Shown here in pieces: positions 1-9,623 of a DNA stretch of 15,356 bases. A model generated the notes under the pieces. That model was not told where the DNA came from, did not search any database, and worked only from the letters and a program-made list of their open reading frames with translations. The position numbers and the translations under genes were made by a program. Every line of letters starts with the position of its first letter. Position 1 is the stretch's first letter. The DNA comes from a virus, in UHGV virus genome UHGV-1950618; one strand, written 5' to 3'.

Positions 1-264
1 CGTCCGGTCCCCACGGGTAGGGAGCCAAAAGAAGGTGAGTACGTTGTCTCTTTGCCAGTGCTACCAGCAATGAAGGCTGCACTCCACAACGCGATGATAG
101 AAACCGGCACACGCAAAGCAGAGTTGGCGCGCAAACTCGGAAAAAATGGAACACAGATTGATCGGCTTCTCGACGTCGAACATTCATCGAAAGTTGAAAC
201 TGTCGAGCTGGCACTGCATCAACTGAATAAAAATATCGCCGTATCTGTCACACCAATGCGGTGA
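1..264 (+). CDS. hicB: HicB-family antitoxin, C-terminal portion; the frame is open from nt 1 so the gene starts upstream of the window
   Basis: Frame 1 is open from nt 1 to the TGA at 262-264. The C-terminal sequence ELARKLGKNGTQIDRLLDVEHSSKVETVELALHQLNKNIAVSV closely parallels, from memory, the DNA-binding tail of E. coli HicB (ELARRIGKPKQEITRLFNLHHATKIDAVQLAAKALGKELSLV). The track start at 52 is an internal Met. Confidence 0.75.
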   Translation, partial: RPVPTGREPKEGEYVVSLPVLPAMKAALHNAMIETGTRKAELARKLGKNGTQIDRLLDVEHSSKVETVELALHQLNKNIAVSVTPMR

Positions 265-376: not shown

Positions 377-1762
377 TCAGGTTTCCAGCCCAAAATCGCT
401 TTGTTCTGTTTTGGCTTCGAACATCGTGAAGTTAAGCCCTTTCCCCTCTCCATGTTCCAGTTCAATCTCATTAGAAACAGCGGTCAAAATACTACGTAGA
501 TCGACATCTCCACCGCCGAACATATCGCCCAACGCCTGCTGTTTATGAATCAGTTCGTCGTTGATTTTTTGTGCCATTTTTTTGAATGCAGCCCCCATGC
601 GCTTCGCGCTTCGATTATTTGCCACGATGAATAGCGCCAACGCCTCGGCTTCCGGCGGGCTATCACCGAAGAGTCCGCGCTGGGCTATCACCTCTTCCAC
701 TGCCTGACCGTTGTCTTTGGCTTCACGAACAAGGTTAATCGCGTCCTGGAGTGCTGCTATAGCCTGTTTATCCAGACCGTTCACCTGCTCTATACCATCA
801 ACCAGACCAGTTACAGCATCATGATGTGCATCGCCAGAAATCGACTGCATTTGCGCAAAGTCACTGGCTGCTGTATTAAGCGCGGTCAGGATATTGCGCA
901 TTTCCGGATCCGGTTCTTCCGCCACAAGCCGAACAAGTCGCTCATCCTTATAGGCTTTGGCAAAAATCGCATTCTGAATGCGATCGATAAGCTGTTTCGT
1001 TGGACGTCCATCGGCTGTAAGCAAACCTGCCGTCGCGGTATCGCCTATTTCGTGCAAAAACGCACGAATAAACGCATCATTGGACCGCGCCAGTAGATTT
1101 CCATCATCTGAAGGATTAAATAGCGCCATGACGCTCTCAGTGAGAAATTGCGCATCCGCATACGCTTTCTCACTTGCAGCCATCTCTTGCAGATCGCTGA
1201 TGTTTGAGTCGCGTGCAAATTGAGCACGATCAACGTCAGTGAGGCGCTCGCGAACCAGTACAGGCATCACCATTGCCCTGACGTCTTCGGGATTAAGGCC
1301 AAACTCTTTAGCGTGATCGATAAGATATTGTCGGTAATCTTCAGCCTGTCCTTGTTCATAAGCACGCCAGATTCCCATGCTTCGACCATTACCAGACTCA
1401 ACGACATTATCCGGACCAACAATCGGGGAACCATGACTACTCATACCCGAATCAGTGAGCTGTGCCGGGCGTAAATTGGCGGCGATACGGTTAACCTGGA
1501 GCTTACTTGACAGTCGGGTGCGATCGCGAGGCTGGAGTTCCTCCGGAAATGACGGATTTATACTTCCGTCCAGGTTGTTAGAAATGATGAGCTTTTTGGC
1601 ATCAATAACCTTGAACGCTGTTTTAACTTCGTCGCCTTTGCTGGTGACGACATAGCTGCTACGCCCCAACTTCGTCTCTTGCTTTTCAAGAGATGACACC
1701 ACAGCGATAACCCCCTCAATGTTCGCTGCGGCCAGAAGTGCTGATGTTACGTTTTGAGTCAC
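377..1762 (-). CDS. hypothetical 461-aa protein with a ParB/Srx-like N-terminal motif and a long helical C-terminal region
   Basis: Long ORF with a GTG start preceded by AAAGGTGG (Shine-Dalgarno-like) 6 nt upstream. Residues ~60-135 read INPSFPEELQPRDR ... GSPIVGPDNVVESGNGRSMGIWRA, which matches the ParB N-terminal pattern (QPR box, then a GxxR..A arginine motif). No Walker A motif. The gene has its own terminator and is separated from the upstream operon by a terminator. Confidence 0.6.
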   Translation of the reverse strand: MTQNVTSALLAAANIEGVIAVVSSLEKQETKLGRSSYVVTSKGDEVKTAFKVIDAKKLIISNNLDGSINPSFPEELQPRDRTRLSSKLQVNRIAANLRPAQLTDSGMSSHGSPIVGPDNVVESGNGRSMGIWRAYEQGQAEDYRQYLIDHAKEFGLNPEDVRAMVMPVLVRERLTDVDRAQFARDSNISDLQEMAASEKAYADAQFLTESVMALFNPSDDGNLLARSNDAFIRAFLHEIGDTATAGLLTADGRPTKQLIDRIQNAIFAKAYKDERLVRLVAEEPDPEMRNILTALNTAASDFAQMQSISGDAHHDAVTGLVDGIEQVNGLDKQAIAALQDAINLVREAKDNGQAVEEVIAQRGLFGDSPPEAEALALFIVANNRSAKRMGAAFKKMAQKINDELIHKQQALGDMFGGGDVDLRSILTAVSNEIELEHGEGKGLNFTMFEAKTEQSDFGLET

Positions 1763-1831
1763 AATTAACCACCTTTCTGTAAAAAAGGCAGTGTAAAAAG
1801 TGTGTTATTTCGGTGACTATTTTAAGAAGAA

Positions 1832-1848
1832 AGGGGCATTCTGCCCCT
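1832..1848 (-). terminator. intrinsic terminator closing the accessory operon
   Basis: Perfect 7-bp stem AGGGGCA/TGCCCCT with 3-nt loop, 5 nt after the stop at 1854-1856; on the minus strand followed by UUCUUCUUAAAAU. Confidence 0.6.
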
Positions 1849-1853
1849 CTCTT

Positions 1854-2225
1854 TTACGCTGCATACCCGTTAGCTGAAACCCAGTTTACGGTCTGTTCTT
1901 TGGCCTGGTCGAGTGTCAAAAATTCACCAATATATTGAGATATGCCTCTCAAAGCATCGATGAACTCCATTTGTGATGATTTAGTAAATGCACCACTAAG
2001 GAAGTCAGCAACAATTTTAGGCGTTTCTTGTGCCGCCGGTTGCACTTCCTCTTCTTGCTGTTGTGCTGGATTATTCGATGAACCAAGCCCCAGCTTCATC
2101 ATCACTTCAACTATCCGCACGCCAATAGTGACACGTTGTACCGCAGTCGCGCTTTTTTGCGCTGACATCAGCTCAGACAGTTCTTTGCCTAAGCTAAGGC
2201 GCTCCGTTACTGATATTTTCACCAC
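1854..2225 (-). CDS. 123-aa protein of unknown function, last gene of the accessory operon (DdrA-like by position only)
   Basis: GTGGTGA overlap with the stop of the 650-aa gene (translational coupling); a G-rich Shine-Dalgarno-like AAGGGGG lies just upstream. No recognisable motif; Gln/Glu-rich central linker. Confidence 0.55.
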   Translation of the reverse strand: MVKISVTERLSLGKELSELMSAQKSATAVQRVTIGVRIVEVMMKLGLGSSNNPAQQQEEEVQPAAQETPKIVADFLSGAFTKSSQMEFIDALRGISQYIGEFLTLDQAKEQTVNWVSANGYAA

Positions 2226-4171
2226 ACGCCCCCTTGTTGTATCTCTGCCAGAATGTTGATCAGGTGATCGGCTGCCGCACCAACAAGTGACTCGTTCTCA
2301 TCATATCGACCTGCGTTGATAAGAACATTAGCTGCCTCCTGAATGCGATCAAACTCCGCTCTAATCACCGTCAAATCACGGGACGTAAACTGCAACGGCA
2401 CGGATTTCAGATATTCCAGCGCACTGTCCGCCTCCTGATCAGCCTCACTAACTACTGGCCCATCTGAACCTGTATCAGACTCTTGGGGGGATTCAGGTTC
2501 AGACTCAGGTTCTGGTTCTTGTACTGCTTCCGGTGCCTGATCTAATGTCTGTTCAGCTTCGACTACTTCTGATTGATTCTGAAGCGCGTCATAGATATCC
2601 ATTATAAAAAGGTTCTCCCCATCTCCAAGTGGATAAGCGACGTTAGGAAATGCTTTGCGGAAGAGGATTTTTATCTGCGCCTTAAAGGTTTTCAAGTCGC
2701 TTCTAAACAGATCAACATAGCCATCAATATGGTTCGACATACTGGACGCAACCAATTCGCCTGCAATCTCTTTCAATTCATCGTCACCAGGGAGATATAG
2801 CAACTCGTACTGACTGACTTCTTCGTCTGTCAGTTTGCGGTCATACGTAATGATTCCGTGACGAGCATATTCGTAATACGGATCAGCCTGATCAGGACGG
2901 TCAAGTACAGCTTTATTTCCTTCAGGAACCGCACCAACACCCGCCGGGCGAGATTGGAGCGCATAGCGATATTTACCAACCTCCAGGGGATCAGGATGTG
3001 ATGCTGGTTGTGGCTCCTGTTCAGGCTGCGGCTGATCAGTTGGCTCAGGCTGGCCCGGCAACACATCCACTTTGTATTGATCAGCATTATGTTCACGATA
3101 GGCTTTAAGTAATTTGGTTGCAGCGTCCGCTGAACTCCCACCTTTAACAGCACTGACATCAATACTGAAATTGCCTTCTGGTGCCTCAATCGTGACAAAG
3201 CTATCACTGCCTGACGTGACATACTTAACTACAGCACCATTATCCAGCGTTGTTTGGCCTTCTGTAGCAAGATTATGTTTTATGTGTCGCAGTTGATCAT
3301 TGAAGGCACGCTCTTTAGTTCCTTGGCTCTTAGCTGACAATAAATTATCGCGTTTAGCCTGCAATTCCGCGTTAAGGGCTTTTTGTGCGTCTAATTTATT
3401 CTGCATATCATTGAGTGTTGAGCGTTTCTCTGCCAGCCCCCGCTGTGCGTCTTCAACCTGCTCAATCAGCACAGAACGTTCTTCTGCCAGCTTGTCGGCT
3501 TCATTGAGATACCCCTCAATATCAGCCTTCATTTTGTCCTGGCGCTCCTTTGCTTTTTTGAATTTTGCACTGTTACGCTCAATGAGGTTAGAAAGCGCCT
3601 GACACACCTGGCTCAGAGATACATCACGCCCACCGATTGGCGCAACAACATGCGTAACGTTTCTTTTGTTAAGAAGAAACTGAAACGCAACCAGCTCGTC
3701 ATCCCCTTTAATTCTTGTGCCGTCTGCGGTTGGAGAATGGAAAATTATGCTTGTCGTTTGTCCATCGGTTAGAGGTATTTGTGCTGTTACAACAGGGATA
3801 TTAGCAACCCGGCGCACGCGCCCAATGATTGCCCCACCGATACTATTACGTCCGTCTTCATATTCACCTGCCTCATCCGTACCCGCAGCAATGTCAGTGC
3901 CATTCAGGCCGCGATTAAGCGCCCGGACAAATGCTCGCATTGTTTGCGCTAACCGCAATTTTGTTGTGGTTATGGCTTCGAACATTGCCTCATTGGTAGT
4001 TACCAAAATTTCGTTGCCCATATAGGCCAGCTCGATATCTTCCAGCGTCGCAGGCTCGATAAGTAAATCATCCTCGGTGATATCTTCCGCCACCCAACGA
4101 TTAGGCGTATATCCAGTGAGCGTATCTGCAAAAGTGGACTGGATATTTATTCGAATAGGTTTCTTTATCAT
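2219..4171 (-). CDS. 650-aa coiled-coil protein with two acidic Pro/Glu-rich linkers; candidate virion-packaged antirestriction protein (DarA-like by size, position and paralogy)
   Basis: ATG start in an ATGA overlap with the upstream stop, GGAGG 7 nt upstream. Heptad-like charged region at aa ~200-290; linkers PEPTDQPQPEQEPQPASHPDP (2987-3055) and PEAVQEPEPESEPESPQESDTGSD (2432-2536). Residues ~110-215 are paralogous to the N-terminal half of the 205-aa protein encoded immediately upstream. Confidence 0.5.
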   Translation of the reverse strand: MIKKPIRINIQSTFADTLTGYTPNRWVAEDITEDDLLIEPATLEDIELAYMGNEILVTTNEAMFEAITTTKLRLAQTMRAFVRALNRGLNGTDIAAGTDEAGEYEDGRNSIGGAIIGRVRRVANIPVVTAQIPLTDGQTTSIIFHSPTADGTRIKGDDELVAFQFLLNKRNVTHVVAPIGGRDVSLSQVCQALSNLIERNSAKFKKAKERQDKMKADIEGYLNEADKLAEERSVLIEQVEDAQRGLAEKRSTLNDMQNKLDAQKALNAELQAKRDNLLSAKSQGTKERAFNDQLRHIKHNLATEGQTTLDNGAVVKYVTSGSDSFVTIEAPEGNFSIDVSAVKGGSSADAATKLLKAYREHNADQYKVDVLPGQPEPTDQPQPEQEPQPASHPDPLEVGKYRYALQSRPAGVGAVPEGNKAVLDRPDQADPYYEYARHGIITYDRKLTDEEVSQYELLYLPGDDELKEIAGELVASSMSNHIDGYVDLFRSDLKTFKAQIKILFRKAFPNVAYPLGDGENLFIMDIYDALQNQSEVVEAEQTLDQAPEAVQEPEPESEPESPQESDTGSDGPVVSEADQEADSALEYLKSVPLQFTSRDLTVIRAEFDRIQEAANVLINAGRYDENESLVGAAADHLINILAEIQQGGVW

Positions 4172-4785
4172 GCATCTTCCTCCAGGCGCGCTATTTCTTC
4201 TTTCAATACGCGAGTTTTCGCCAGTTCCTGCGCCATCTCGGTTCTAATGATTTCAGTTTCTCTTGTTGCGCGGTCTGAATTACCTTGCACCTGATTTAAT
4301 TTTTCTTTGGCCCTTTCAATATCCTCGCGGATCGCATCGCGAGATTCCTTTGCCTCTGCTAGTTTCTGCGCATTGGACTTAACGCCTTTTATTTTCTTAT
4401 TCCCATCATCAATATCTTTCGCCGCACGAGCTAACTTACGCGCCAATGATTTCTGAAATGATGATGCGCCTTTATTAAATAAAGCAGCCAGTGATTGCCC
4501 TAAAGCCATCAGCGTTTTAACTGGCTTGAAAGGAACAATTTTTCCGTTCAGTTTTACACCAGAAATATCACCAGTATCATTAACCTGAACGTCCATCGTC
4601 TGCTCATCGATTCCGATAAGGGTAAACGTGCGCGTCATGATCCCGTCTTTCTTCCTGCCATTACTGGCGGGGATCACCCTCGCTATCTTGTAGCCTCCTT
4701 TACCGATTTCTTTGACGAGTTTTGCCAGCCCCTTTTCGTTTAACTCATCATAATTAAGAAGAACATAATTAGACTTATTTGACAT
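4168..4785 (-). CDS. 205-aa protein paralogous to a segment of the 650-aa protein (Hdf-like); start re-assigned to the internal ATG
   Basis: The track starts at a TTG (4809), but an ATG at 4785-4783 is preceded by a perfect AAGGAG 6 nt upstream. GKGGYKIARVIPASNG and SLAALFNKGASSFQKSLARKLARAAKD parallel SIGGAIIGRVRRVANI and VCQALSNLIERNSAKFKKAKERQDKMK in the 650-aa protein. C-terminal coiled coil. Confidence 0.5.
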   Translation of the reverse strand: MSNKSNYVLLNYDELNEKGLAKLVKEIGKGGYKIARVIPASNGRKKDGIMTRTFTLIGIDEQTMDVQVNDTGDISGVKLNGKIVPFKPVKTLMALGQSLAALFNKGASSFQKSLARKLARAAKDIDDGNKKIKGVKSNAQKLAEAKESRDAIREDIERAKEKLNQVQGNSDRATRETEIIRTEMAQELAKTRVLKEEIARLEEDA

Positions 4786-5221
4786 TCCAGTCTCCTTCAC
4801 ACTTTTCAATCATAAACTGACGTTCTATGCAGTCATTGATAGGGAAAATGCGATAAAGCGGATTCAGGCGGCAATTACCGTTAGTCAATGTGACCTTTAG
4901 ATCCCACTTCGCTGGCTCAAGATATTTCGTGTCGATGAGCAAATATTCTTCTCTCTCACCGCGTTTTGACGCGTCAACTGGTCTGGTTTTCCCCGAAATA
5001 ACCACAGATGGATTTTTCAAGTCCTGCAACCAATATTCGATTTGTGCATTGCTTACCCAGCTTCGTTTAACGCGAAGCGACACAGGAAACGCTATAGCAG
5101 ACTCTTTCACTACAGCTTCGCCAATGCTCAAAATATCAACACTCTTGCGACGAAATAAGAAACGGTCAATAACGGCAACAAATGCCATGATAAAAATGAA
5201 ATAATTTCCAAAGTCACCCAT
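4775..5221 (-). CDS. 148-aa protein with one N-terminal transmembrane helix; candidate holin regulator (antiholin/LydB-like by position)
   Basis: TAATG stop/start overlap with the upstream holin-like gene. Hydrophobic segment NYFIFIMAFVAVIDRFLF at aa 6-23 followed by a Cys-containing soluble domain; no lysozyme or coiled-coil spanin signature. Confidence 0.45.
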   Translation of the reverse strand: MGDFGNYFIFIMAFVAVIDRFLFRRKSVDILSIGEAVVKESAIAFPVSLRVKRSWVSNAQIEYWLQDLKNPSVVISGKTRPVDASKRGEREEYLLIDTKYLEPAKWDLKVTLTNGNCRLNPLYRIFPINDCIERQFMIEKCEGDWNVK

Positions 5222-5547
5222 TACTTCTCTCCACCTTTTCCCCCACTCGCTATTACGCTTAAGAGATTCAAGACGTTACTAGCTCTGGACTTCAAGCCCT
5301 GTAAAATTTCACTTCCGTTGTTACTGGCAATCAGAACAACGCAGTAAATGATGCCTTCCGGCCATTCATAGCTATCAGCCACCCAAAACCCCGCAAGCCC
5401 GGCAGTTACCGCAGTAAACAATTCACTCGCGAGGTTGAGCAGTGACGCAGAAATGCGCCCGTCTCTAACTCCGAGAAGGAATACGCCGGTTCCACTCAGC
5501 AGGGATGTTATGACTGCTACAGCCAGATTTTCATAATCTGCAAACAT
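5221..5547 (-). CDS. 108-aa three-TM membrane protein, class I holin-like (LydA-like by position)
   Basis: Three hydrophobic helices (aa ~8-27, 36-57, 65-85) and a charged C-terminal tail ending KGGEK; ATG preceded by GGAGGGG. First gene after a ~460-bp spacer. Confidence 0.5.
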   Translation of the reverse strand: MFADYENLAVAVITSLLSGTGVFLLGVRDGRISASLLNLASELFTAVTAGLAGFWVADSYEWPEGIIYCVVLIASNNGSEILQGLKSRASNVLNLLSVIASGGKGGEK

Positions 5548-5859
5548 ACCCCTCCAGAAATGACGTTTAACGCGGCTTCAACTTATCCAGTTTGTTATTT
5601 CCCGACTAAATGCCATTCACACAAAATGGATGCATATGATGGCCCGGTGGTCCGTAAACCTCGTCACTCAGAGCGTGGAGGATGCCAAATTCGCGTATCA
5701 ACAAAATGGTCCAAACACGGCTTTAAAGAGAAATACGCTTGAATGCGCAAGATGTGAGCTGATTCTTGAGGACAAAATGATGACATGTGAGTCTTCACAA
5801 GCGTCATTCAGTGAATATAATGCCCCCCTCTCAGATACCACTAACTGAGTGTTCATTTT

Positions 5860-5893
5860 GCCCGCCGTCATTGACTGGACGGCGGCTTTTTTG
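5860..5893 (+). terminator. plus-strand intrinsic terminator with no convincing plus-strand gene upstream
   Basis: 8-bp GC stem CCGCCGTC/GACGGCGG (5862-5869 with 5878-5885), 8-nt loop, then C plus TTTTTT (5887-5892). Confidence 0.7.
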
Positions 5894-5942
5894 TACCAAA
5901 GGATTGTATTACTAAAAAAGGTCACAAAAGCACTCACTAATA

Positions 5943-5965
5943 AAGCCCTCAACAAAAGAGGGCTT
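5943..5965 (-). terminator. candidate terminator downstream of the tail-fibre assembly gene
   Basis: 8-bp stem AAGCCCTC/GAGGGCTT with 7-nt loop, 43 nt after the tfa stop; on the minus strand followed by UAUUAGUGAGUGCUUUUGUGACCUUUUUU (interrupted U tract). Confidence 0.5.
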
Positions 5966-6007
5966 GAAATATCAAAAAAGCAGTGCTGATTGGATTGTTA
6001 TGATTGT

Positions 6008-6461: not shown

Positions 6462-9089
6462 TTAATACCCATAAGCAACATACTGTGCATATACTTTATC
6501 AGTAGAGCTACTTTTTACTGTAAAACCAGTGGCTGAGTTGTTGTATGTATAAAGAATTGCATTAACAGCATTCCCGCTATTAGGTGAAATCACAACTACC
6601 GCACACGCCTCAGGAAAAGCAGTCGGAAATTTAACTACGCTTCCTGGAGTAACAGCCGCTATAATCCCCCACTGCATCATCACCTTAGTTGATGTATCCT
6701 TATGCCATCCATGAATGTTGGCATATGCTGTGTTTTTAGCCTGATATTTCGTGTTGAAATTACTATAGTTACCAGGGGTAATCTGACCAGCGGCAGATAA
6801 ATTCCCCATAACCCTTACATGACCATCAGCACGTCCTAATTCTACGCGACCATCACCGCCATCTATCTTTAATGGAGTGTAAACGACATCACCATTAACA
6901 TTTTGCCCAGTGGTTGATATCTGGAAACTATATCCAGTATTAGTTATTAGGAATCCATAGTTATTATTATAAGTTAGGCGTATAGCATTTTGGCTGCTGG
7001 ATATAATTTCACCGGTAACAGTACCACCTGTTGTTGGTAACGCACCAACATGACTTGCCGTTAATGTGATATCTGCAGAACCATCAAACTTAACACCGTT
7101 GATTGTGCGGGCTGTTTGCAGTTTTGTAGCGGTTGCAGCATTACCTGTTGTGTTCTGGTTACCGGCAATGTTCACACCCGGCAGGTTGATATTGGCGCTG
7201 CCATCAAATGCCACCCCGCCGATTGTGCGTGCCGTCTGAAGTTTTGTTGCGGTTGCAGCATTACCGGTTGTGCTCTGATTACCTGTTTTATTAACGCCCG
7301 GCAGGTCGATATTGGCGGTGCCATCAAATGCCACCCCGCCGATCGTTCGGGCCATCTTGAGCTTTGTGGCAGTATCTGCGTTTCCCGTCAAATTACCTGT
7401 AATGCCACCACTAACTGTTACCCCATTACCGATGGACACCAACCCGGTTCTTAAATTTATAGCAAAAGGTCTTAATGGGCCGATGTCACCATTTTCTCCC
7501 TCACCTTCATTTGTCGGGATAAGATGAAGATATTCCTCGGATCTCCTGAAGATAAGGCCAAAGTCCTGGTTAAATATTCGAAGGGCATTTATTGTGCCAA
7601 TTTTTAGCTGCCCCCCCATTGTGTCGCCAGAACGCTGAACTGCGTTACCAGCTTGAGAAGCAATATCCGTTAAGCCAAGATCTTCAGGGGTCAGAGTAAT
7701 ATCTGCCGACCCATCAAATGCCACACCGTTAATCTTTCTGGCTGTTTTTAATTTCGTCGCAGTATCGGCGTTCCCGGTCAGCGTACCAGTGATCCCCGCG
7801 CTGAAAGTCTGGCGTGCACTCCAGGTATTAGCTGTGCTCAACAGGGGGAGCTTTTCTCCGCTGGTTCCGAGTTCTCTTAAACCAAGGTATTGGATAACAG
7901 CCAGTGTGCTTGTTTTAGCAAGAATATCGCGACCGACTGACGTTAAATCAGTCTGGGCTACAGTGTCTGTTCCGGTAAAGTACGGTAATTTATTTGCCCC
8001 CGTCGCCAGGTCAGCGAGCGCGGTTAAGGTTGCGTCGAGAGGCTGCTTACCTGCCAGGGCATTTGTCATTGTAGCCGCAAAGTTCGGGTCATTGCCCAGC
8101 GCCGCAGCAAGCTCATTAAGAGTATCAAGAGCTTCTGGTGATGAGCCGACCAATGCAGAAATAGCGGCACGAACATAAGCGGTTGTTGCAATCTGAGTGT
8201 TGTTCGTACCTTGTGACGCTGTAGGCGCTGTTGGCACCCCTGTAAATGCCGGGCTTAATAACGGTGCTTTAAGAGCTAAAGCAGCATTAATCGTCTGGCT
8301 AAACTGAGGATCATTGTTAATTGCATCTGCAATTTTTTTCAGCGTATCCAACGCTGAAGGAGAACCATCAATAAGGGCGGTTATTGCGGCCTGAACAAAG
8401 GCAGTGTTTGCGATTTGTGTACTGTTTGTACCTTGTTCCGGAGTTGGAGATTTAGGTATACCAATAAACTCCGGGCTATCAACCGGAGCTTTTAGTTTGT
8501 TTAACGTGCTGATAGCAAGAGGTGTTGCGGCTTTATATTCTTCGTCACTATCCAAAGCACTGGAAAACTCAACACCAACAGCACGATTAGCACGATATTC
8601 AGTGCTAATCATATCTGCGGTAACGGCTTGAGCATTGTCAGGCACGATCACGCGGCATAGCTCAATCTGGTTAGATGCTATTTCCTCATCAACGAGAGCA
8701 ATAATTCTCGCTGCGCTAATATCCGATGAGCTATCTACCTGGCTGGTTTTCACTCCATGTTCGTAATTAGCTTCAAGAACGATGATTGTCGTTACACCAG
8801 CTTCTACAGGAACAAGAACATCACTGACTTGCTGCACGGATATCTGACATTTACCCACGTCAATTGAAGCCGCCCCTCTTCCCTCTGTTTTCTCGGATGT
8901 AATACGCACAAACAGACCATCCCCTGGCACCGGTTCAAACCCACAGTACACTCCGGGCAGAACGATATTTTTCATCTTCCTGTTTAGAGCTTCGGTGCTA
9001 TACAGCTCAAAGTATTGCATGTCTGCAATTAGTGGAGCGGAAATGTCCGAAGATAAGGTGACAATATTCTTTACTTTATCTGCGCACAT
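6462..9089 (-). CDS. tail fibre protein (875 aa)
   Basis: Characteristic fibre repeats: two ~75-aa units (PxxSPxFxG.P..P....GTN.TQIA.TA.V.AAI.AL..SP.ALDTL...A.A..NDP.F) and four ~40-aa units (TGNA.TATKL.TAR.I.GV.FDGSA.I.L). ATG start 2 nt after the upstream stop. Followed by tfa. Confidence 0.9.
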   Translation of the reverse strand: MCADKVKNIVTLSSDISAPLIADMQYFELYSTEALNRKMKNIVLPGVYCGFEPVPGDGLFVRITSEKTEGRGAASIDVGKCQISVQQVSDVLVPVEAGVTTIIVLEANYEHGVKTSQVDSSSDISAARIIALVDEEIASNQIELCRVIVPDNAQAVTADMISTEYRANRAVGVEFSSALDSDEEYKAATPLAISTLNKLKAPVDSPEFIGIPKSPTPEQGTNSTQIANTAFVQAAITALIDGSPSALDTLKKIADAINNDPQFSQTINAALALKAPLLSPAFTGVPTAPTASQGTNNTQIATTAYVRAAISALVGSSPEALDTLNELAAALGNDPNFAATMTNALAGKQPLDATLTALADLATGANKLPYFTGTDTVAQTDLTSVGRDILAKTSTLAVIQYLGLRELGTSGEKLPLLSTANTWSARQTFSAGITGTLTGNADTATKLKTARKINGVAFDGSADITLTPEDLGLTDIASQAGNAVQRSGDTMGGQLKIGTINALRIFNQDFGLIFRRSEEYLHLIPTNEGEGENGDIGPLRPFAINLRTGLVSIGNGVTVSGGITGNLTGNADTATKLKMARTIGGVAFDGTANIDLPGVNKTGNQSTTGNAATATKLQTARTIGGVAFDGSANINLPGVNIAGNQNTTGNAATATKLQTARTINGVKFDGSADITLTASHVGALPTTGGTVTGEIISSSQNAIRLTYNNNYGFLITNTGYSFQISTTGQNVNGDVVYTPLKIDGGDGRVELGRADGHVRVMGNLSAAGQITPGNYSNFNTKYQAKNTAYANIHGWHKDTSTKVMMQWGIIAAVTPGSVVKFPTAFPEACAVVVISPNSGNAVNAILYTYNNSATGFTVKSSSTDKVYAQYVAYGY
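7050..7440 (-). repeat. three tandem ~120-nt coding repeats inside the tail fibre gene, plus a fourth dispersed copy at ~7680-7799
   Basis: Near-identical DNA units are visible at ~7081-7200, 7201-7320 and 7321-7440. GVAFDG is encoded at 7320-7337 and again at 7710-7727 (checked by reverse-complement translation). Confidence 0.85.
8040..8495 (-). repeat. two consecutive ~75-aa fibre repeats (coding)
   Basis: aa ~199-272 and 273-350 of the fibre share the same motif order; the corresponding DNA at ~8161-8280 and ~8341-8460 is visibly similar. Confidence 0.7.
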
Positions 9090-9538: not shown

Positions 9539-9623
9539 ACGAACATAGCCCCTTTAACAAGCAATAAATCGAAGGGCAGTATGTTCAGTTTGTGATTTCC
9601 AGTGGTCTTTTGTTTTGAGAAAT

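What the first reader, a model, noticed from the sequence alone, without database searches (positions are those of the whole stretch)
1854..5547. Five-gene overlapping accessory operon downstream of the tail fibre: candidate holin/antiholin plus virion-packaged antirestriction (P1 Lyd/Dar-like) cassette
Seen in sequence: five minus-strand genes (108 aa with 3 TM helices; 148 aa with one N-terminal TM; 205 aa; 650 aa; 123 aa) joined by overlapping or abutting stop/start codons (TAATG, an 11-nt overlap, ATGA, GTGGTGA), preceded by a ~460-bp spacer and closed by a terminator at 1832-1848. There is no endolysin or spanin, so this is not a normal lysis cassette. The 205-aa protein is a paralog of part of the 650-aa protein. 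From memory, phage P1 carries a late operon of the same order (lydA holin, lydB antiholin, hdf = homolog of DarA fragment, darA, ddrA) encoding head-internal proteins that protect injected DNA from type I restriction, placed next to the tail-fibre region. The match here is by architecture only. If homology is not confirmed, this is an uncharacterised membrane-associated system in a phage accessory slot.
Basis: partly seen in the sequence, partly recalled or inferred. Interest (0 to 1): 0.8.

Follow-up and report, generated by a model that had tools for sequence, protein, structure and literature searches.

The report
P1-type Dar antirestriction and holin operon

Summary
Five minus-strand genes sit at the stated coordinates, with exactly the stated overlapping junctions, a 460-bp upstream spacer and a hairpin straight after the last stop codon.

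- All five proteins match P1 LydA, LydB, Hdf, DarA and DdrA at 34-41% identity, and phage D6 at 65-94%.
- DarA and Hdf match the solved P1 chains 9ukm_I and 9ukm_H.
- DarA passes NCBI's DarA equivalog model.

The window is a D6-like phage-plasmid, 99.5% identical to public E. coli plasmids. D6's GenBank record already labels these genes by their P1 names, so the system is already known.

What I add:
1. ddrB, a short form with only the ParB-like half, follows the hairpin.
2. The operon has a candidate late promoter, AAATMACAMACT + 3 nt + -10 hexamer. It differs from P1's box and marks 10 late operons in D6.
3. ddrB has its own copy of that promoter. In an E. marmotae plasmid, ddrB is swapped out at the hairpin.
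4. The spacer holds a relic of the cin invertase gene, left when the invertible tail-fibre segment was lost. cixR survives in gene S.
5. LydA shows two clear hydrophobic segments, not a firm three.

Function is inferred from P1 and was not tested.

The parts
5580..5600 (-). Candidate late promoter of the lydA-ddrA operon: box AAATAACAAACT (5589-5600), 3 nt, then -10 hexamer TAAGTT (5580-5585). About 32 nt upstream of the lydA ATG.
   Evidence: The same box, spacing and -10 hexamer lie upstream of 10 late operons in D6, against about 2 box hits expected by chance. Conserved upstream of lydA in five related replicons. No transcript data.
5221..5547 (-). lydA, holin (108 aa)
   Evidence: PHROG 1527 holin, E = 1e-38. 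41% identical to P1 LydA and 94% to D6 LydA. Pfam Phage_holin_3_3 scores 20.5 bits, below its cut-off of 28.4. Two clear hydrophobic segments plus a short third.
4775..5221 (-). lydB, LydA antagonist/antiholin (148 aa). Its start overlaps the lydA stop (TAATG).
   Evidence: Pfam PF16084 LydB, 86.9 bits against a cut-off of 28. PHROG 1898, E = 4e-68. 34% identical to P1 LydB. N-terminal hydrophobic segment at aa 5-23.
4168..4785 (-). hdf (205 aa), a paralogue of the DarA N-terminal domain followed by a C-terminal helical region. 11-nt overlap with lydB.
   Evidence: Pfam DarA_N, 65 bits. PHROG 1620 Hdf-like, E = 3e-72. PDB 9ukm_H (P1 Hdf), E = 3e-25. hhalign against the DarA alignment: 88% probability, E = 3e-6.
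2219..4171 (-). darA (650 aa), internal head protein. ATGA overlap with hdf.
   Evidence: Pfam DarA_N 136 bits and DarA_C 69 bits. NCBIfam NF052326 equivalog, 1084 bits against a cut-off of 350. PDB 9ukm_I, E = 3e-124 over aa 35-649. 78% identical to D6 DarA and 40% to P1 DarA.
1854..2225 (-). ddrA (123 aa, or 122 aa from the GTG at 2222). GTGGTGA overlap with darA.
   Evidence: PHROG 1855 DdrA-like, E = 1e-44. 36% identical to P1 DdrA and 65% to D6 DdrA. No Pfam or NCBIfam model matches.
1827..1853 (-). Terminator-like hairpin closing the five-gene unit. GC-rich core 1832-1848, followed on the minus strand by TTCTTCTT.
   Evidence: Conserved in D6, Salmonella and E. coli relatives. Homology with the E. 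marmotae plasmid breaks at 1827, at its edge. Termination itself was not tested.
1790..1810 (-). Second candidate late promoter, for ddrB: box AAATAACACACT (1799-1810), 3 nt, then -10 hexamer TACACT (1790-1795).
   Evidence: Conserved at the same place in D6, CP092511 and AP027414. P1 has only a 12-nt ddrA-ddrB gap and no promoter annotated there.
377..1762 (-). ddrB, short form (461 aa). Only the N-terminal ParB-like half of P1 DdrB (995 aa).
   Evidence: Pfam ddrB-ParB, 137.7 bits. 64% identical to P1 DdrB aa 2-442 and 90% to D6 DdrB (454 aa). Replaced, together with its promoter, in the E. marmotae plasmid.
5689..5780 (+). Relic of the cin DNA invertase gene (about codons 6-34). Not part of the operon, but it explains the long spacer.
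   Evidence: 80-83% nucleotide identity to the 5' end of cin in D6, P1 and SJ46. 24 aa are 71% identical to Cin aa 11-34. PHROG 8275 DNA invertase, E = 2e-9.
5862..5885 (+). Strong plus-strand terminator in the spacer (8-bp stem, 7 GC pairs, then CTTTTTTGT), between the cin relic and the tail-fibre assembly gene.
   Evidence: Sequence read.

Best explanation
The region is the D6-lineage version of the phage P1 darA operon, a late-expressed unit with two jobs.

Lysis timing. LydA is a holin that permeabilises the inner membrane at the end of the lytic cycle. LydB delays it. The endolysin is encoded elsewhere in the genome, as in P1.

Head assembly and antirestriction. By analogy with P1, Hdf and DarA enter the procapsid early as pairs bound to the inner capsid surface at penton-hexon junctions. 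There they help set head size and recruit the other Dar proteins. In P1, DarA loses its N-terminus to the prohead protease. DdrA, DdrB, DarB and Ulx are then loaded. The proteins leave the head with the DNA and protect it in cis from type I restriction enzymes. In P1, the DarA/DdrA branch acts against EcoA-type enzymes and the DarB/Ulx/DdrB branch against EcoB and EcoK.

What is shown here: homology of every gene, gene order, translationally coupled junctions, a conserved promoter-like motif shared with other late operons of the lineage, a conserved hairpin after ddrA, and a second copy of the motif in front of ddrB.

What is inferred: late Lpa-type activation, termination at the hairpin, virion packaging, and antirestriction activity.
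For: Homology.
- families and BLASTP; solved P1 DarA and Hdf chains.
- P1 shows the same gene order next to cin and the tail-fibre genes.
- D6 has the same operon annotated by P1 names, and has darB, ulx and lpa elsewhere.
- A plasmid 99.5% identical to the window carries a 2278-aa SNF2-type gene, the same length as D6 darB, followed by a 435-nt gene, the same length as D6 ulx.

Regulation.
- The box AAATMACAMACT occurs 3 times in the window, all on the minus strand and all upstream of operon starts.
- It occurs 10 times in D6 against about 2 expected. All copies are intergenic, correctly oriented and 34-146 nt upstream of lysozyme, prt, ddrB, lydA, R, pmgB, 23, upfC, 7 and mat.
- All 13 sites have a -10-like hexamer with A at position 2 and T at position 6, exactly 3 nt downstream.
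- The hairpin is conserved, and it marks the recombination break in the E. marmotae plasmid.

Mechanism in P1: PMC12810830, PMC9024508 and PMC9025707.
Against: - No experiment exists for this element or, as far as I could find, for D6 Dar proteins.
- Identity to the P1 proteins is only 34-41%, so target specificity may differ.
- DdrB lacks the C-terminal 545 aa of P1 DdrB.
- P1's own late-promoter box is absent from the window, so late control rests on a motif I derived here.
- Pfam's LydA holin model scores below its gathering cut-off.
- darB and ulx lie outside the window and could only be checked in relatives.
Confidence: 0.88

Rival explanations
1. As in P1, the unit is really a six-gene operon, lydA to ddrB. 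The hairpin at 1827-1853 is only a partial terminator or an RNA-stability element, and the motif in front of ddrB is not an independent promoter.
For: In P1, ddrB follows ddrA after 12 nt with no annotated promoter. The hairpin's U-tract is interrupted (TTCTTCTT). The plain terminator scan listed it only for the plus strand.
Against: The ddrB-proximal site has the full box, spacing and -10 hexamer with zero mismatches to the consensus. It is conserved in four lineages whose flanking intergenic sequence has diverged. One plasmid replaces ddrB plus this motif with a breakpoint at the hairpin and keeps the five genes at 98% identity.
Confidence: 0.25
2. In this lineage, Hdf and DarA act mainly or only as capsid-size and scaffold accessory proteins, and the antirestriction role of P1 Dar is not conserved.
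For: P1 DarA and Hdf have a documented structural role: deleting either cuts normal heads from about 80% to about 15% (PMC12810830). Identity to P1 is only about 40%. DdrB is truncated.
Against: The lineage retains the full set of Dar partners, namely DdrA, DdrB, DarB and Ulx. In P1 these have no known role other than antirestriction (PMC9024508). The DarA C-terminal domain (Pfam DarA_C) is conserved.
Confidence: 0.1
3. One reading: an uncharacterised membrane-associated accessory system unrelated to P1 Dar.
For: None after testing. DdrA has no Pfam or NCBIfam model, and public plasmid records label most of these genes 'hypothetical protein'.
Against: Every gene has a significant, full-length match to its P1 counterpart in the same order.
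Confidence: 0.01

Closest known systems
Phage P1 darA operon (LPdar-lydA-lydB-hdf-darA-ddrA-ddrB), NC_005856
   Same: Same six gene families in the same order, with overlapping junctions, next to the cin and tail-fibre region. DarA and Hdf align with the solved P1 chains 9ukm_I and 9ukm_H. The endolysin is unlinked, as in P1 (PMC9025707).
   Different: - Identity is only 34-41%, except DdrB at 64%.
- DdrB is 461 aa against 995 aa.
- A 91-nt gap with a hairpin and a promoter-like site separates ddrA from ddrB, against 12 nt in P1.
- The late-promoter box differs: AAATMACAMACT + 3 nt here, AACAAGTGACTT + 4 nt in P1.
- There is no lydC, and cin is reduced to a relic.
Phage D6 orf30-orf25 (lydA, lydB, hdf, darA, ddrA, ddrB homologues), NC_050154 / MF356679
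   Same: - Same lineage: 82% nucleotide identity over about 3 kb, and protein identities of 94, 94, 80, 78, 65 and 90%.
- Same short DdrB, and the same hairpin plus second promoter motif.
- Already annotated as 'similar to P1 gene ...'.
   Different: - D6 keeps an intact cin and an invertible S'/U' segment between the tail fibre and lydA. The window has lost them.
- The DarA C-terminus and DdrA are the most diverged parts.
- The slot after ddrB holds different cargo: a DUF4145 gene in D6, HicAB-like genes here.
Phage T4 internal protein IPI* and other head-packaged anti-restriction proteins
   Same: Same strategy: proteins packaged in the head and ejected with the DNA to counter host restriction (cited as a parallel in PMC12810830).
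   Different: No sequence relationship was seen in any search here. According to the literature, as I recall it, T4 IPI* targets a type IV enzyme, whereas Dar targets type I enzymes and also affects head size.
SaPI1 CpmA/CpmB capsid-size redirection of phage 80alpha
   Same: Accessory internal proteins that alter capsid size. The comparison is drawn by the authors of PMC12810830.
   Different: No homology. Cpm proteins are removed on maturation, whereas DarA-Hdf stay in the mature head.

Membership tests
P1 Dar (defence against restriction) system / darA operon | DarA homologue with DarA_N and DarA_C domains | tested here: met
   Pfam 136 and 69 bits. NCBIfam equivalog 1084 bits against a cut-off of 350. 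PDB 9ukm_I, E = 3e-124.
P1 Dar (defence against restriction) system / darA operon | Hdf: a small paralogue of the DarA N-terminal domain, encoded just upstream of darA | tested here: met
   Pfam DarA_N, 65 bits. PDB 9ukm_H, E = 3e-25. hhalign against DarA, E = 3e-6.
P1 Dar (defence against restriction) system / darA operon | DdrA homologue immediately downstream of darA | tested here: met
   PHROG 1855, E = 1e-44. 36% identical to P1 DdrA, E = 1e-24.
P1 Dar (defence against restriction) system / darA operon | Full-length DdrB (about 995 aa: ParB-like N-terminal half plus the C-terminal half annotated as a possible metallopeptidase) | tested here: not met
   Only the N-terminal 450 aa are present: 64% identical to P1 DdrB aa 2-442, in a 461-aa protein. 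D6 has the same short form. One relative lacks ddrB altogether.
P1 Dar (defence against restriction) system / darA operon | Gene order lydA-lydB-hdf-darA-ddrA(-ddrB) beside the cin and tail-fibre region | tested here: met
   Window ORFs compared with the P1 annotation and the D6 annotation.
P1 Dar (defence against restriction) system / darA operon | P1-type late promoter (-22 box AAGTNACTT, 4 nt, then -10 hexamer) upstream of lydA | tested here: not met
   There is no P1-type box in the window. A different box with fixed spacing to a -10 hexamer occupies that position and marks late operons across D6.
P1 Dar (defence against restriction) system / darA operon | DarB and Ulx encoded in the same genome | tested here: inconclusive
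   They are not in the window. They are present in D6. Genes of the same sizes, in the same order, are present in a plasmid 99.5% identical to the window.
P1 Dar (defence against restriction) system / darA operon | Proteins packaged in the head, DarA processed by the prohead protease, ejected with the DNA, cis-protection against type I restriction | not testable with these tools
   Known for P1 only (PMC12810830; PMC9024508).
LydA holin (holin superfamily III, Pfam PF16083) | Sequence membership | tested here: inconclusive
   Pfam scores 20.5 bits, below its cut-off of 28.4. However, PHROG 1527 holin gives E = 1e-38, and the protein is 41% identical to P1 LydA, E = 2e-23.
LydA holin (holin superfamily III, Pfam PF16083) | Small membrane protein with at least two TM segments and a charged C-terminus | tested here: met
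   Hydrophobic segments at aa 8-27 and 39-57, plus a short one at aa 65-79. The C-terminus reads GGKGGEK. This is hydropathy only, not a dedicated TM predictor.
LydB antiholin (Pfam PF16084) | Sequence membership and position directly after lydA | tested here: met
   86.9 bits against a cut-off of 28. TAATG junction with lydA.
Cin/Gin-type invertible host-range segment | Intact invertase gene and a pair of inverted cix sites | tested here: not met
   Only a relic of about 90 bp of cin remains. cixR is perfect at 7875-7894, but no second cix site was found with up to 5 mismatches; the only other hit is the same site read on the opposite strand.

The most novel reading that the evidence does not exclude
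In the D6 lineage, the Dar cassette is organised differently from P1.
- It uses a late-promoter box unlike P1's, AAATMACAMACT placed 3 nt before the -10 hexamer. This implies an Lpa homologue with changed DNA specificity.
- It is split by a terminator into a fixed five-gene core (lydA-ddrA) and a separately transcribed, exchangeable ddrB module.
- That ddrB encodes only the ParB-like half of DdrB, and in some plasmids other cargo replaces it.

This would make DdrB an optional, swappable modulator of the Dar system rather than a core part. I could not read the D6 genome paper (Gilcrease and Casjens 2018), so some of this may already be described there.
Probability: 0.5. Interest if true: 0.3.

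Novelty: already known. Interest (0 to 1): 0.12.

Why it matters
It matters little as a discovery. The Dar system and the LydA/LydB pair are well studied in P1. Their D6 homologues are already annotated, and NCBI has an equivalog model for DarA.

The practical value is in annotation. Public records of near-identical E. coli plasmids still call most of these genes 'hypothetical protein' or 'head protein'. D6-like phage-plasmids are common in E. coli, Salmonella and Shigella: 120 plasmid records match this region.

The side results could help anyone engineering or inducing D6-like phage-plasmids, or studying which Dar components are core and which are optional. These are the lineage-specific late-promoter motif, the separate and replaceable short ddrB module, and the frozen tail-fibre segment.

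Tried and rejected
1. I first read AAGTTGAAG at 5576-5584 as a degenerate P1 -22 box. I rejected this once the shared block upstream of lydA, R and ddrB showed that TAAGTT is the -10 hexamer of a different promoter type.
2. A strict P1-type late-promoter pattern has no match in the window.
3. Rfam at gathering thresholds finds nothing in the whole window.
4. The 85-aa minus-strand ORF in the spacer (5698-5955) was tested as a possible lydC-like holin. It has no PHROG hit and no BLASTP similarity to P1 LydC. It also runs through two hairpins, so I treat it as spurious.
5. I suspected a frameshift in the sit-like ORF at the right end. The reading frame is simply open to the window edge.
6. DdrB has no match among solved structures.
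7. The D6 genome paper (PMC5800970) is not held, and a literature search for D6 late promoters found nothing relevant. I therefore cannot say whether the motif has been published.
8. A second hairpin covering the ddrB ribosome-binding site (1768-1792) is not conserved in D6, so I did not build on it.
9. Structure prediction and the large protein-database searches were not used, because sequence matches to solved P1 structures already settle identity.

Full report
**Observation.** The window has five consecutive minus-strand ORFs at the reported coordinates.
- lydA 5221-5547, 108 aa.
- lydB 4775-5221, 148 aa.
- hdf 4168-4785, 205 aa from the ATG.
- darA 2219-4171, 650 aa.
- ddrA 1854-2225, 123 aa.

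Each start is preceded by a Shine-Dalgarno-like motif. The upstream gap 5548-6007 is 460 bp. The hairpin with core 1832-1848 extends to a 12-bp stem at 1827-1853 that begins right after the ddrA stop codon. The 98-nt ddrA-ddrB intergenic stretch containing it folds at -28.9 kcal/mol, z = -3.9 against shuffles.

Three small corrections apply.
- Hydropathy supports two clear hydrophobic segments in the 108-aa protein plus a short third, not a firm three. P1 LydA is described with two predicted helices (PMC9025707).
- ddrA may start one codon later, at 2222, as PGAP calls it.
- The paralogy between the 205-aa and 650-aa proteins is distant. BLASTP gives E = 0.02. It is nevertheless supported by Pfam DarA_N hits in both proteins and by profile-profile comparison, 88% probability and E = 3e-6.

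**Identity.**
- BLASTP against proteins translated from the P1 reference record gives 41%, 34%, 40%, 40% (over 632 aa, E = 7e-144) and 36% identity respectively.
- Pfam LydB, DarA_N and DarA_C score above their curated cut-offs.
- PHROGs assigns holin, lysis determining protein, Hdf-like antirestriction, the DarA family and DdrA-like.
- NCBIfam's equivalog model 'antirestriction phage head protein DarA' scores 1084 bits against a cut-off of 350.
- The 650-aa and 205-aa proteins match the solved P1 DarA and Hdf chains (9ukm_I, E = 3e-124; 9ukm_H, E = 3e-25).

**Source element.** The window belongs to the D6 branch of P1-like phage-plasmids.
- It is 82% identical at the nucleotide level to phage D6 over about 3 kb.
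- It is 99.5% identical over 6.5 kb to E. coli plasmids of about 90 kb. In all, 120 plasmid records from Escherichia, Salmonella and Shigella match.
- The D6 RefSeq record already labels the corresponding genes 'similar to P1 gene lydA / lydB / hdf / darA / ddrA / ddrB'.
- D6 carries darB, ulx and lpa elsewhere.
- The near-identical plasmid has a 2278-aa SNF2-type gene followed by a 435-nt gene, the same lengths as D6 darB and ulx.

The system is therefore already known. Only the annotation of many plasmid copies lags behind.

**The sixth gene.** Downstream of the hairpin lies a 461-aa ORF (377-1762) with the Pfam ddrB-ParB domain.
- It is 64% identical to the first 442 residues of P1 DdrB (995 aa) and 90% identical to D6's 454-aa DdrB.
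- The D6 lineage therefore has a short DdrB that lacks the C-terminal half.
- It is notably better conserved with P1 than the other Dar proteins.

**Regulation.** P1's late-promoter box is absent from the window.
- Instead, one block recurs three times on the minus strand, each time in front of an operon start. The sites are upstream of lydA (5589-5600), of the R/S/U tail-fibre operon (9587-9598), and of ddrB (1799-1810), the last just after the hairpin.
- The full 23-nt pattern has no match in any of 200 shuffles.
- In the complete D6 genome, the 12-nt box with at most one mismatch occurs 10 times against about 2 expected. Every copy is intergenic, correctly oriented and 34-146 nt upstream of the first gene of a morphogenesis or lysis operon: lysozyme, prt, ddrB, lydA, R, pmgB, 23, upfC, 7 and mat.
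- All 13 sites have a hexamer with A at position 2 and T at position 6 exactly 3 nt downstream.
- P1's seven annotated late promoters share a different box and spacing, AACAAGTGACTT + 4 nt + TAnnAT.

I infer that this is the late promoter of the D6 lineage, presumably served by its Lpa homologue. I also infer that ddrB is a separate late transcription unit. No transcript data exist.

**Support for the five-gene boundary.** The hairpin and the ddrB-proximal motif are conserved in D6, in a Salmonella plasmid and in a second E. coli lineage, although the surrounding intergenic sequence has diverged. In E. marmotae plasmid NZ_CP099353.1, homology to the window (98% identity) runs from 5775 to 1827, the edge of the hairpin, and resumes at 446. 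The ddrB promoter and nearly all of ddrB are replaced there by a DUF3944 gene and a helix-turn-helix gene on the other strand.

**The spacer.** It is not featureless.
- Window 5689-5780 is 80-83% identical to the 5' end of cin/gin invertase genes. The 72-aa plus-strand ORF there matches only Cin residues 11-34.
- Gene S retains a perfect D6-type cixR site at 7875-7894, but no second cix site, no S'/U' genes and no intact cin exist.
- The invertible host-range segment has therefore been deleted, and the spacer is what remains: the lydA promoter region, the cin relic, a strong plus-strand terminator (5862-5885) and a hairpin after the tail-fibre assembly gene.
- There is no lydC-like gene.

**Mechanism, inferred from P1.**
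- LydA and LydB are a holin and its antagonist. They cooperate with an unlinked endolysin (PMC9025707). That explains why the cassette has no endolysin or spanin.
- In P1, 55 DarA-Hdf pairs bind the inner capsid surface at penton-hexon junctions and contact DNA. DarA loses about 70 N-terminal residues to the prohead protease. The pairs are absent from heads that have ejected their DNA (PMC12810830).
- Deleting either protein shifts assembly toward small heads and excludes the other Dar proteins. Those are loaded in order and leave with the DNA to protect it from type I restriction (roles tabulated in PMC9024508).
- The window's proteins align with the structured regions of P1 DarA and Hdf, so the same mechanism is the most likely one. 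It remains untested for this lineage.

**Verdict.** The novelty class is 'already known', and interest is low. The modest new points are listed below. I could not check them against the D6 genome paper, which is not held.
- The lineage-specific late-promoter motif.
- The split of the cassette into a core operon and a replaceable short-ddrB unit.
- The cin relic and frozen tail-fibre segment.

Noticed in passing
window 7875-7894 (cixR) and 5689-5780 (cin relic): Tail-fibre gene S keeps a perfect D6-type cixR recombination site. Its partner cixL, the alternative S'/U' genes and all but about 90 bp of cin are gone. The invertible host-range segment is frozen in one orientation. In P1 the retained cin piece coincides with the annotated inversion enhancer.
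   Followed up: partly
window 9577-9599 (minus strand); D6 genome (L004/L005), 10 sites: The motif AAATMACAMACT + 3 nt + YAnnnT also precedes the R/S/U tail-fibre operon in the window and marks 10 late operons in D6. It differs from P1's late-promoter box and looks like the late promoter of the D6 lineage.
   Followed up: yes
window 5794-5821 and 5862-5885 (plus strand): A near-consensus sigma-70 promoter-like site (TTCACA, 16 nt, TATAAT; 11 of 12 matches) points toward a strong plus-strand terminator about 40 nt downstream. This would give a transcript of roughly 60-70 nt in the spacer. There is no Rfam match.
   Followed up: no
window 1-264 (plus strand); L003 12236-12880; L010 5318-8413; D6 25273-26207: The slot between ddrB and the portal gene carries different cargo in each relative. 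The window lineage has HicB-like and HicA genes. D6 has a DUF4145 gene plus an unknown gene. Salmonella and one E. coli plasmid have nothing there. An E. marmotae plasmid has DUF3944, a helix-turn-helix gene and a transposase, which also displace ddrB.
   Followed up: partly
window 1768-1792 (minus strand): A second predicted 11-bp hairpin pairs the ddrB Shine-Dalgarno region with upstream sequence that includes part of the candidate -10 hexamer. It could form only in read-through transcripts. It is not conserved in D6.
   Followed up: partly
window 377-5547 compared with D6 and P1: Divergence is uneven. Against D6, LydA and LydB are 94% identical, Hdf 80%, DarA 78%, DdrA 65% and DdrB 90%. Against P1, DdrB is 64% identical while the other five are 34-41%. 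This suggests mosaic exchange or faster evolution of the DarA C-terminus and DdrA.
   Followed up: no
window 6462-9089 compared with L003 2530-6039: Tail-fibre gene S is 875 aa in the window but 1169 aa in a plasmid that is 99.5% identical across the adjacent 6.5 kb. The window protein has repeated GNADTATKL...FDGSA units and a Gp53-like C-terminal domain, and its tail-fibre assembly protein is only about 31% identical to D6 U.
   Followed up: no
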